NCBI GenBank assembly: GCA_951406725.2
Contig: OX597820.1
Span: 92,380,001-92,444,000, forward strand
Source: Octopus vulgaris
Lineage: Eukaryota
DNA: 64,000 bases
Direction: 5' to 3'
The notes below the pieces were generated by a model, which worked only from the letters and a program-made list of their open reading frames with translations, made no database searches and was not told the origin of the DNA. Shown here in pieces: positions 54,003 through 62,998 of the stretch. How positions within the stretch are numbered: the stretch's first letter is position 1; every line of letters starts with the position of its first letter. The translations under genes were made by a program, and so were the position numbers.

Positions 54003-54010
54003 TGCGTTAC

Positions 54011-54128
54011 GCTTACTGCAGCTAGGTTTCCCAAGCGGTCACCCATCTAAGTACTGACAAGGCTCGACGTTGCTTAACTTCGGTGATCAGACGAGAACCG
54101 TTGATTTCAACGTGATATGGCCGTAACC
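54011..54128 (-). pseudogene. Full-length 5S rRNA-derived sequence fused to a SINE body
   Basis: Minus strand GGTTACGGCCATATCACGTTGAAATCAACGGTTCTCGTCTGATCACCGAAGTTAAGCAACGTCGAGCC...AGTACTTAGATGGGTGACCGCTTGGGAAACC...GCAGTAAGC; 118 nt with box A, IE and box C; no oligo-T terminator. Confidence 0.88.
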
Positions 54129-60439: not shown

Positions 60440-60814
60440 GTAATATAATATATATACTAATATACTAGCAGAAGTACCCGGCGTTGCCAGGGAGAAAGAA
60501 ACCTTGAAATTTTAAAACGCCGTCTAGATTACGCGGGTCTCAGCATCTAGTAGGTGAGATACTATCTTTCTATGTAAGTCTGCAATTCATGCCAACAGAG
60601 AACATAGTTGTTAAGTGAAATGTGAAACGAATGTTTTCTACTCATTTATCTATAGGAAGTAAATACACGTTTGTCTAACTTCTTTCATAGTCAAGAAACA
60701 GGTATAGATTATAAACAATAAAAAGCCATGCATAGAGTACACACACACACATACGCATACACAAAGAAACAGACAGCGAGTATATCACGTTATTGTTTCA
60801 CTTTTATAAACAGA

Positions 60815-61248
60815 CTAGCTTAAGGTGACCCGCTCTACACGCGGGTAAGAGTGGGTTGTTACTTTCTGTTGCTTCCTTTCTGACAGTATGCAACTACTCT
60901 ATCGCTCTACCACCGCTCATGTCTCTTTGAGGCATTTAGAAATTCAATATTTCTAATTATGGTGACCAGTGAATAGATTTCAGTTTAAATATGTATATTT
61001 GCGAAGGCTTGGCAAGTATCTCAACTAGCAGGACTTGCTACCCTGGACTGATGACGGGTAAGACCCAGAAACATGCATGTCTTCAGGTTGCTAGTCTTAG
61101 CTGGTGGGGGTGCTTGCCTCGCCTTCGCAAATATAAGGACACAGGAAATGTGTCAAAGCCGACAGGAAGCGTCGATGCTTCCTTGGGCTAAATAGCGGTG
61201 GTGTAATTCCCTTTACGGGACTGTCACGTTATGTTGACAGTATACAAC

Positions 61249-61307
<59 letters not shown>

Positions 61308-61410
61308 GGAGTAAACACATAAATGTGAAACAAGGTGGAAAAAAAGAGTACTCAAATACCAGTGGTAGAGTAATATGCTTTATTTAAAGCAGCAGCTGCT
61401 TTAAATAAAG

Positions 61411-61442
<32 letters not shown>

Positions 61443-61950
61443 CATTATATATACATATTTATATATAGAACACACATATATATATATATATTAATCCAAT
61501 AAATATCTGATTCATAACATTTGTTCTCATGATTATGTGGTTGTGGTAGCGATAATAATTCTCTCTATGAATGCAGACAGACGTAGAGAGAGAAAGAGAG
61601 AGGATGTAGGAGAAAGAGTGACAGCGCTGGCGAAGGCAGCGATGTAAAGATAGTAGACACTGTCAAGCGTCGTAATAGAGAGAAACTGAAGGGAAGGGAG
61701 GAAAGAGAGAGACGGAGGAAGACAGGCAGATAAGAAAATGAGAGAAGCGAGAAAAACTTGTCAAAGTGTGGATTTTTTTGCCCTAGTAACCACAGCTTTT
61801 AAGATAACCTAGCCCACTCACATGCTCACCTCATTTTACATTTCCGTGTAAATTTTGGAGCGAATCCGACGGTATCTTGTGCCCTTTAACCTGTTCCAAT
61901 GCCAAAACCAGACAAACAAACTTTTCGCAGTTCAGATTTATAGATATTGA
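60815..61950 (-). mobile_element. Second (nested) non-autonomous Helitron
   Basis: 3' CTAG|T at 60815 with hairpin acccgc-tctacac-gcgggt (60828-60846); candidate 5' A|TCAATATCTATAAATCTG at about 61950. Confidence 0.5.
61042..61087 (+). ncRNA. Type I hammerhead ribozyme (CUGAUGA, GUC site) at the tip of a long rod (60994-61135)
   Basis: CCUGGA-CUGAUGA-cGGGU-AAG-ACCCa-GAAA-CAUGCAUG-UC-UUCAGG; outer 15-bp stem uauauuugcgaaggc/gccuucgcaaauaua. Confidence 0.85.
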
Positions 61951-62049
61951 TATATATTCACACATGTCAGTCTAATTAGTGAAATTTCAATAGTAATACT
62001 TTAACACTCAGTGGTTTTACACTTCTGTATATAACATGGACCTACTATT

Positions 62050-62600
62050 CATGAAGTGCTTCTTCATATATTGTTTTCTTTCGTGCCATGTTTATCACTG
62101 AGAGTGTAGAGGTTCTTTTCATCTCCAACTCTGGAACATCCAACATACAGCTGACCATTTGAGAAGCAAGGTTGAACGAGATTAAGTGCCACCACCTTTA
62201 GGCATTGACCTTGTTATTTGTTGATAGGCATTGGAAAGCTGAGTTTGACAGGAAACTGCAGTCTCTTGTCCTGAAAGGGAGATCATTTGAGATGAGAGGT
62301 ATCCTTCGAATGAAGACATTCTCACCCATTATGTTACCATGATGCATAGAAGACTTGCTCATTGCTGCCTCTGTCAGAGTGGCGTCCCAGTGTGCATCAT
62401 CTTCTAGAAGATCTGTGAGATGGCAAGCATTGTGATATGTTTGACATACAGTGTTATCAACCGTATGTAAGCCCGTAAAAGTTGTGGGTCCCTTGATATG
62501 GTGTAAGAGAAGCCTTAGATAGTAGCACCCTGAGTAGCTGGAATGGACAACATGAACTCTACCAAGTGTGTATGAATTAATGGTTCTCGGATGATGTGTG
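62050..62600 (-). pseudogene. Helitron RepHel remnant (inter-domain region fused to PIF1 helicase C-terminus)
   Basis: YYLRLLLHHIKGPTTF..L.TV...CQTYHNAC...LLEDDAHWD, then RIPLIS.DLPF..LQFPVKLSF.M.INK.QGQ.L...CFSNGQLYVGCSRVG. Confidence 0.85.
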
Positions 62601-62998
62601 GGTGCTCCACATATATAATTCAATTGTTATTATTTTTATTGTTAAAGTGAAAGTATCTGACGTAAAATAGAGAAATGTTTTTTTTTCACTTTTAACACGT
62701 AATACTGAAATAGTGGAGAAGATATGATATTACTATGGGCTAGCTCTAGGCAAGATGTTGAACTACATGGACCCTAAGTAAGGCATGTGTAAAATTTGAA
62801 CGAAATTGGTTGTGTATTTCTCAAGTTTTAGGGAGTCGTAGTGGAGAAGATATGATATTGCTGTGGGCTCGCCCTATGCAAAAAGTTAAAAACAAATTTT
62901 GCCGATGACACTCCCCGGACCCTAAGTAAGGCATGTGTAAAATTTGAATGAAATTGGTTGTGTAGTTCTCAAGTTTTAGGGAAACACACAGACAGACA

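What the first reader, a model, noticed from the sequence alone, without database searches (positions are those of the whole stretch)
60881..61255. Highly structured ~350-nt hammerhead RNA cassette inside a Helitron
Seen: a CUGAUGA/GAAA/GUC hammerhead whose helix I extends into a ~140-nt interrupted rod rich in G-U pairs (tatatttgcgaaggc/gccttcgcaaatata, ggcaagta/tgcttgcc, actagc/gctggt, aggact/agtctt). Hairpins gacac/gtgtc and aggaagc/gcttcct follow. An imperfect ~20-nt direct repeat (tgacagtat.caac.act.ta at 60881 and 61235, 354 bp apart) bounds it. It is unlike the minimal PLE HHRs and is sized like an animal retrozyme or viroid-like monomer. Inference: either a retrozyme inserted with a TSD, or a ribozyme captured and spread by a rolling-circle DNA transposon, which I do not know to be described.
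Basis: partly seen in the sequence, partly recalled or inferred. Interest (0 to 1): 0.85.

Follow-up and report, generated by a model that had tools for sequence, protein, structure and literature searches.

The report
Penelope-mobilised hammerhead retrozyme, not Helitron cargo
This is one copy of a 354-base repeat family carrying a hammerhead ribozyme motif; it sits inside a Helitron only at this one place among the copies examined, the ends of its other copies suggest that Penelope-type retrotransposon enzymes likely spread it, probably from a circular RNA, and a separate protein-coding element is found again and again just upstream of its ribozyme motif.

Summary
The hammerhead, the rod and the 354-bp spacing are real (fold z -8.6; compensatory changes across 51 copies). 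The unit belongs to a dispersed family (214 exact core matches) of the animal non-LTR retrozyme kind. The '20-nt direct repeat' is the start of a second head-to-tail unit, not a TSD. The C·A pair under helix II is the commonest family state, not a lesion. The copy does lie inside a non-autonomous Helitron, itself nested in another. But 0 of 24 other copies of that Helitron carry it, and the junction occurs once in the genome, so capture and spread by a Helitron is not supported. Family insertions carry Penelope signatures: two fixed 3' ends about 58 nt apart, inverted 5' arms pairing one end of each type (18 of 25), 11-16-bp TSDs, microsatellite targets, and no ends at the cleavage site. Unexpected extra: ORF1-only LINE-like elements sit 19-38 nt upstream of the hammerhead core in several divergent retrozyme families (29 of 46 3' ends; control 0.9%). 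Self-cleavage, circular RNA and both autonomous partners are not shown.

The parts
60881..61252 (+). Retrozyme copy: 1.05 units of a 354-bp repeat, 5'-truncated, ending at the family's fixed 3' end A; one hammerhead only
   Evidence: 15 differences from the majority of 30 copies
61042..61087 (+). Type I hammerhead motif: helix I 6 bp (61042-47/61082-87), core 61048-54 and 61068-71, helix II 3 bp on a C61055·A61067 pair, helix III 3 bp with a palindromic loop, predicted cut after C61081
   Evidence: sequence; compensatory changes in 3 of 6 helix I pairs and 1 of 4 helix II pairs
60994..61135 (+). Interrupted rod extending helix I
   Evidence: about 91% of cells paired, 10 of 41 pairs with two-sided change
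61138..61188 (+). Two hairpins 3' of the rod
61235..61252 (+).
60899..60959 (+). Segment between the family's two fixed 3' ends A and B (optional Penelope-type 'tail', ~58 nt, two predicted hairpins)
   Evidence: 56 arms end at A and 41 at B, of 116
61018..61050 (+). Site at which ORF1-only elements sit in other copies of the family; empty in this copy
60815..60882 (-). 3' end of non-autonomous Helitron B (CTAG at 60815-18, hairpin 60828-46); shares TG with the retrozyme 5' junction
61411..61950 (-). 5' part of Helitron B (TC end at 61950, A|T target); roughly 0.8-0.9 kb of its interior is missing where the retrozyme sits
61253..61305 (.). (TA)n tract, matching the position of Helitron B's internal microsatellite; likely target of the insertion
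61306..61412 (-). Separate short repeat: 3' tail of another hammerhead-bearing Penelope-type family with a small inversion
60465..60813 (-). 3' part of non-autonomous Helitron A, interrupted by Helitron B
61951..62609 (-). Continuation of Helitron A beyond Helitron B (far end not mapped)

Best explanation
The 372 bases at 60881-61252 are one truncated copy of a dispersed 354-bp hammerhead-bearing repeat family, a non-coding animal retrozyme that is likely copied by the enzymes of a Penelope-like element and that likely landed once in the internal (TA)n tract of a resident Helitron. Proposed cycle: (1) rare genomic copies with two hammerheads (shown, 4 of 84 insertions) are transcribed (inferred); (2) double self-cleavage and ligation give a 354-nt circle (inferred from coral, mussel and axolotl retrozymes); (3) a Penelope GIY-YIG nuclease makes a staggered cut in AT-rich or microsatellite DNA (11-16-bp duplications shown, enzyme inferred); (4) reverse transcription starts at two fixed internal sites, A and B, often one from each DNA end (end pattern shown, mechanism inferred from the anole Poseidon element in vitro); (5) copying passes through the cleavage site and stops at variable places, up to 1.8 units (shown). 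This copy has one hammerhead, so it would not release a monomer and is probably a dead end.
For: Family size: 2395 first-look candidates, the 40 scored 89-100% identical; 214 exact core matches and 504 exact 3'-motif matches, reversed-pattern controls 0. Ends: 97 of 116 arms end at A or B; among 30 arms chosen only by the core, 24 do, against 7% expected. 18 of 25 inverted insertions have one A and one B end; 9 of 25 have non-simple 11-16-nt duplications, against a mean of 1.1 in 83 for mismatched flanks; 46 of 97 A/B ends run into microsatellites. These match published Penelope features (PMC11167929; PMC8557442; PMC3846280). Of 28 arms ending at A/B, 11 cross the cleavage site and 0 stop at it. 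Structure is conserved by two-sided changes: 59 cells against 17.5 shuffled, 91% paired against 28-43% when slid. Intact Penelope-type RT + GIY-YIG frames exist in the genome. No Helitron linkage elsewhere.
Against: No sequence match between the unit and 36 GIY-YIG loci, so no autonomous partner is identified. No arm reaches two full units (longest 645 nt), whereas published retrozymes include long arrays. The tail is ~58 nt, longer than the 30-40 nt described. This copy has no TSD. The core lacks the G10.1-C11.1 pair and may cut slowly or only as a dimer; in the 2026 preprint 8 of 9 tested frog elements did not cleave, and the anole hammerhead was dispensable for insertion in vitro. Covariation counts are inflated by subfamily structure. 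The loci came from three searches, two of which favour end A.
Confidence: 0.82

Rival explanations
1. A Helitron captured the ribozyme cassette and spreads it by rolling-circle DNA transposition.
For: The copy lies between the two ends of Helitron B, both ends are intact, and it replaces ~0.85 kb of the interior, so this one composite could in principle move as a Helitron.
Against: 0 of 24 other Helitron B copies carry it; the junction occurs once; other unit copies have unrelated flanks and Penelope-type ends.
Confidence: 0.03
2. The unit is a non-autonomous Penelope derivative copied from linear, uncleaved read-through RNA; the hammerhead is weak or vestigial and no circle is involved.
For: Non-canonical 10.1-11.1 pair in most copies; no ends at the cleavage site; Penelope insertion needed no hammerhead cleavage in vitro; only 4 of 84 insertions hold two cores.
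Against: Core letters and helices I-III are conserved, with two-sided changes. Without a circle, 5' truncation would shrink copies each generation, yet 37 of 116 arms exceed one unit and no long source array was seen. A mismatch at the base of helix II still allowed cleavage in an axolotl retrozyme.
Confidence: 0.2
3. The unit is simply the terminal repeat of the ~2-kb ORF1-bearing element, and short copies are its deletion products.
For: A ~2.05-kb form with unit sequence on both sides of an ORF exists at many loci, and it can be moved whole in Penelope fashion (both arms of L229 and L167 carry the ORF element's 3' end).
Against: The ORF element sits in several divergent retrozyme families with 10-25-nt duplications, forms tandem stacks separated by the short target, and 96%-identical copies sit in hosts only 74-78% alike. 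At least three ORF1 families use the same site. This fits repeated insertion into the retrozyme.
Confidence: 0.08

Closest known systems
Animal non-LTR retrozymes (Cervera & de la Pena 2020, PMC7229834; Li, Clavereau & Pollet 2026, 10.64898/2026.07.22.740005)
   Same: Type I hammerhead in a 150-450-bp head-to-tail non-coding repeat (mussel 350-390 bp, axolotl 330/350 bp); highly self-paired predicted circle; TSDs longer than 4 bp; coexistence with Penelope elements; a mismatch under helix II as in axolotl HHR_Amex2.
   Different: Mostly sub-unit to 1.8-unit insertions, no long arrays among 116 arms; C·A or U-A under helix II; the two fixed 3' ends and paired inverted arms are not described for retrozymes in the parts of these papers that I read; no sequence link to a Penelope pLTR found; cleavage and circles not shown.
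Endonuclease-bearing Penelope-like elements: tail, inverted pLTR, two RT start sites (PMC11167929, PMC3846280, PMC8557442)
   Same: Two fixed 3' ends with an optional tail on one arm, head-to-head inversion, 5' truncation, AT-rich and microsatellite targets, TSDs around 10 bp, hammerhead in the repeat.
   Different: No RT or nuclease frame; tail ~58 nt rather than 30-40; hammerhead with 3-bp helix III and a long rod, unlike minimal pLTR hammerheads (PMC4209133).
Target-specific Tx1-clade LINEs and 'half-L1' (HAL1) ORF1-only elements (PMC4494074 passages; HAL1 seen as a reference title only)
   Same: The passenger element encodes one CCHC-knuckle ORF1-like protein and inserts with TSD-like duplications at one site of another mobile element, as Tx1L does in Tx1D.
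   Different: The target is a hammerhead retrozyme, held by position across families only ~65-80% alike; no ORF2 partner found; Tx1 membership is inferred, not tested.
Non-autonomous Helitrons
   Same: Host elements show 5' TC, 3' CTAG, a subterminal hairpin, A|T insertion and no TSD.
   Different: They are only the landing site here; no sign that they carry the ribozyme.

Membership tests
Animal non-LTR retrozyme | Type I hammerhead motif in each unit | tested here: met
   Rfam models did not score it
Animal non-LTR retrozyme | Head-to-tail repeat of 150-450 bp, no coding frame | tested here: met
   354 bp; 37 of 116 arms exceed one unit; no frame of 150 aa over the unit
Animal non-LTR retrozyme | [quoted passage not shown] | tested here: inconclusive
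   Not met by this copy; 4 of 84 insertions hold two cores one unit apart; none holds two full units
Animal non-LTR retrozyme | TSD longer than 4 bp when present | tested here: met
   9-18 nt in 15 of 83 insertions, control mean 1.1; absent at this copy
Animal non-LTR retrozyme | Highly self-paired circular fold | tested here: met
   predicted only: 68% paired, z -10.5
Animal non-LTR retrozyme | Self-cleavage in vitro | not testable with these tools
   needs transcription assay
Animal non-LTR retrozyme | Accumulates as circular RNA | not testable with these tools
   no run on record as RNA, contigs only
Animal non-LTR retrozyme | No PBS or PPT; GC under 50% | not tested
   not examined directly
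Penelope-mobilised element | Two fixed 3' ends with optional tail | tested here: met
   97 of 116 arms; 24 of 30 core-selected arms
Penelope-mobilised element | Inverted 5' arm, tail on one arm only | tested here: met
   25 of 83 insertions inverted, 18 of them A+B
Penelope-mobilised element | Sequence shared with the pLTR of an autonomous Penelope element | tested here: not met
   no match in 36 GIY-YIG loci out of 6136 candidates; small sample, dominated by one family
Non-autonomous Helitron (host element B) | 5' TC, 3' CTAG, subterminal hairpin, A|T target, no TSD | tested here: met
   empty site seen in Helitron A copies
Helitron-captured cargo | Same fragment and junction in several Helitron copies | tested here: not met
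   0 of 24; single junction match
Target-specific Tx1-type element (passenger) | One target type in over 20% of flanks | tested here: met
   29 of 46 3' ends from cargo-selected loci are followed by a hammerhead core; control 0.9%
Target-specific Tx1-type element (passenger) | ORF2 with APE nuclease and RT of the Tx1 clade | tested here: inconclusive
   none in the copies read; autonomous partner not found

The most novel reading that the evidence does not exclude
A three-tier parasite system. Hammerhead retrozyme circles are copied by Penelope enzymes from two fixed internal start sites, and are themselves the dedicated landing site of ORF1-only LINE-like elements that find a spot 19-38 nt upstream of the hammerhead core in families too divergent for simple sequence recognition. 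The loaded form is cut by its two hammerheads into a ~2-kb circular RNA that encodes a zinc-knuckle RNA-binding protein and is spread by the Penelope machinery: a protein-coding retrozyme.
Probability: 0.3. Interest if true: 0.8.

Novelty: new member of a known kind. Interest (0 to 1): 0.5.

Why it matters
Which enzymes move animal retrozymes, and whether a circle is the template, is stated as open in the papers read (PMC7229834, PMC7761336; the 2026 preprint offers co-occurrence and a tree). This family gives junction-level evidence for Penelope machinery and names two start sites that can be tested directly in the existing in vitro Penelope assay. The ORF1-only passengers would add hammerhead retrozymes to the known targets of site-specific LINEs. 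The Helitron capture idea that made the finding look exceptional does not hold.

Tried and rejected
Helitron capture: rejected. TSD reading of the 20-nt repeat: rejected. C·A as decay of this copy: rejected. Rfam: no hammerhead hit. Autonomous Penelope partner: none among 36 GIY-YIG loci; a pattern from a loose contig end had 0 matches. Expression: no RNA holder listed; contigs of three runs guessed to be RNA and one unlabelled run cover 27-29 of 29 bins at 85% likeness, but they are not shown to be RNA and cannot show circles, strand or level, so I use them neither for nor against. Passenger protein: no homologue at E<=0.001 among the 8000 candidates scored, no solved relative, Pfam zf-CCHC below cut-off, Atlas neighbours 0.86-0.89, leads only; a structure job never returned. 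ORF2 partner of the passenger: three candidates read; one was a further ORF1-only copy in a retrozyme, none showed an RT frame. One search folded the antisense strand of a second family and is uninformative. One search's de-duplication failed and was replaced. In one search two rows (L229, L232) gave artefactual identities; I rely on neither. The supplement of PMC7229834 could not be read and those of the preprint were not seen; either may list related mollusc retrozymes.

Full report
OBSERVATION. The window is G000:C7:92380001-92444000 of a 2.8-Gb genome. It is an animal, likely a mollusc: Atlas neighbours of one of its repeat proteins are mostly molluscan, and octopus is my recalled guess, not established. 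The hammerhead is there as described: helix I 61042-47/61082-87, CTGATGA 61048-54, helix II of three G-C pairs on C61055·A61067, GAAA 61068-71, a 3-bp helix III inside the palindrome 61071-80, predicted cut after C61081. All quoted helix arms are present. The region folds at z -8.6, and at z -10.5 as a 354-nt circle against -8.4 for the other strand. The hammerhead-competent fold lies 5.3 kcal/mol above the minimum. Rfam does not detect it.

THE FAMILY. A genome search gave 2395 candidates; the 40 scored are 89-100% identical and many continue head to tail. Exact patterns give 214 cores and 504 3' motifs, with reversed controls at 0. In the first 100 listed cores the base under helix II is C in 58, T in 38, A in 4 and never G, and its partner is A in 93 (counted by hand); in 51 aligned copies 43 are unpaired there and 8 are U-A. 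So C·A is a family state. Across those 51 copies 91% of cells pair, 15 of 72 pairs change on both sides, and 59 cells do so against 17.5 in shuffles; slid controls pair 28-43%. Relatedness inflates these counts, but the changes include helices I and II.

THE HELITRONS. Two non-autonomous Helitron-like elements are nested here on the minus strand. Element A (60465-60813, resuming at 61951) is interrupted at an A|T site by element B (60815-61950), which has TC and CTAG ends and a subterminal hairpin. Full B copies are about 1.5 kb with an internal TA-rich tract 770-900 bp from the CTAG end. In the window that interior is missing: the retrozyme joins B's first 68 bp through a shared TG and ends against the (TA)n tract, followed by a short tail of another Penelope-type repeat. 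None of 24 other B copies holds the unit; 21 run on into the Helitron body and 3 into another repeat. None of 29 best-matching or 30 core-selected unit loci has B joined to it; one has B about 1 kb away. The junction pattern matches once in the genome. This is a nested insertion, not capture. A search for 'hammerhead ribozyme' with 'helitron' gave 4 papers, none describing capture by listing or abstract.

HOW IT MOVES. I mapped 116 arms in 84 insertions from 93 loci. 3' ends fall at site A (unit position about 19; 56 arms) or site B (about 77; 41 arms); 4 fall at a minor site and 15 elsewhere, while 5' ends are scattered. Two of my three searches favour A, but among 30 arms chosen by the core alone 24 end at A or B, against 7% expected. 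25 of 83 insertions have an inverted head-to-head arm, and 18 of these carry A on one arm and B on the other. 9 of the 25 show non-simple duplications of 11-16 nt, as do 6 of 58 single-arm insertions (9-18 nt); mismatched flanks give 1.1 on average. 46 of 97 A/B ends run into microsatellites. This is the pattern published for Penelope-like elements: two RT start sites bounding an optional tail and extension of both DNA strands (PMC11167929, main text read), inverted arms with a tail at one end and microsatellite bias (PMC8557442, passages), TSDs of 8-10 bp (PMC3846280, passages). The genome holds intact Penelope-type RT + GIY-YIG frames of 781 aa, but none of 36 such loci shares sequence with the unit.

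TEMPLATE. Only 1 3' end and 2 5' ends of 116 lie near the cleavage site; of 28 A/B arms chosen by the 3' motif, 11 cross it and none stops there. A cleaved linear monomer is thus not the main template. 37 arms exceed one unit, the longest is 645 nt, and none reaches two units. Four insertions hold two cores one unit apart and could release a monomer. A circle explains more-than-unit copies without long source arrays; uncleaved read-through RNA remains possible. The window copy has one core and 15 changes from the majority, none in the catalytic letters.

UNEXPECTED PASSENGER. Some copies are interrupted just upstream of the hammerhead by a 1.65-kb element with one frame of up to 458 aa and a CCHC knuckle, no RT. 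It is abundant (19,800 candidates, 92 scored, many open frames). Of 55 distinct 3' ends, 38 are followed by a hammerhead core 19-38 nt away; leaving out 9 ends from loci picked with the retrozyme in mind, it is 29 of 46, against 0.9% for random positions. Most of the rest are followed by a short piece of the target and another copy. The hosts are several divergent retrozyme families, with core variants including U3-A8 and a G-C pair under helix II. Duplications of roughly 10-25 nt flank the element. Copies 96% alike sit in hosts 74-78% alike, and overall correlation is weak (0.34, rough identities), which favours repeated site-specific insertion. Two further ORF1 families, about 27-30% identical in protein, use the same site and share the 3' end. 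In L229 and L167 both inverted arms include the passenger's 3' end, so the composite was also copied in Penelope fashion. No ORF2 partner was found. Tx1-clade LINEs that target other transposons are known (PMC4494074, passages), and ORF1-only 'half-L1' elements exist (reference title and listing only). A search for 'retrozyme' with 'Tx1' gave 0 papers and one search listed none on this. An unchecked scan note describes a Tx1 element targeting Penelope tails in another genome.

COMPARISON. The unit meets the sequence-level definition of animal non-LTR retrozymes (PMC7229834, results and discussion read; review PMC7761336, passages). The 2026 preprint (main text read) argues from co-occurrence and a tree that they are non-autonomous Penelope derivatives, and found cleavage in 1 of 9 elements. 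It differs from minimal pLTR hammerheads (PMC4209133, results and discussion read) by its rod and helix III. Searches with 'octopus' found no description of such a family by listing or abstract; supplements that I could not see may hold one.

VERDICT. A real, structured retrozyme family, a new member of a known kind. The Helitron link is incidental. What raises it above routine is junction evidence for Penelope mobilisation with two named start sites, and a site-specific ORF1-only passenger. Cleavage, circles and both enzyme donors are inferred, not shown. Interest 0.5.

Noticed in passing
L166:2356-4001, L200:1087-2460, L205-L264: Abundant ORF1-only (CCHC) LINE-like family inserted 19-38 nt upstream of hammerhead cores in several retrozyme families, often stacked in tandem
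   Followed up: partly
L265-L269, L167:2241-2940: Two further ORF1-only families (about 27-30% protein identity to the first) with a shared 3' end at the same retrozyme site
   Followed up: partly
L220, L221, L225, L232, L233, L245, L247-L249, L251, L258, L259: Other retrozyme families in this genome with core variants (U3-A8, U3·G8, U4C) and G-C, A-U, G·U or C·A under helix II
   Followed up: partly
L214, upstream junction of the ORF1 element: The element's 5' end is preceded by a stretch resembling the 5' end of U1 snRNA (recalled motif, not tested)
   Followed up: no
window 61306-61412: Tail of another Penelope-type family with its own two fixed ends and a CCGA-type minimal hammerhead in longer copies (L090-L096, L133)
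   Followed up: partly
L159:906-4587, L160:581-4281: Young Penelope-type family with many intact 781-aa RT + GIY-YIG frames, preceded by a separate 360-480-aa upstream frame of no known family; no hammerhead motif found by my pattern
   Followed up: partly
window 54010-54128 (-): 5S rRNA match, 88 bits, apparently a dispersed copy
   Followed up: no
L037: A different Helitron-like element inserted at the same site of Helitron A as Helitron B in the window, suggesting a hot spot
   Followed up: no
L073, L074, L084: Three Helitron B copies break at almost the same place as the window copy (after about 66 bp) and continue into another repeat, so this point may be prone to rearrangement
   Followed up: no
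L173 and L188: Two retrozyme arms share the same non-unit 5' flank at unit position 272, possibly another composite form
   Followed up: no
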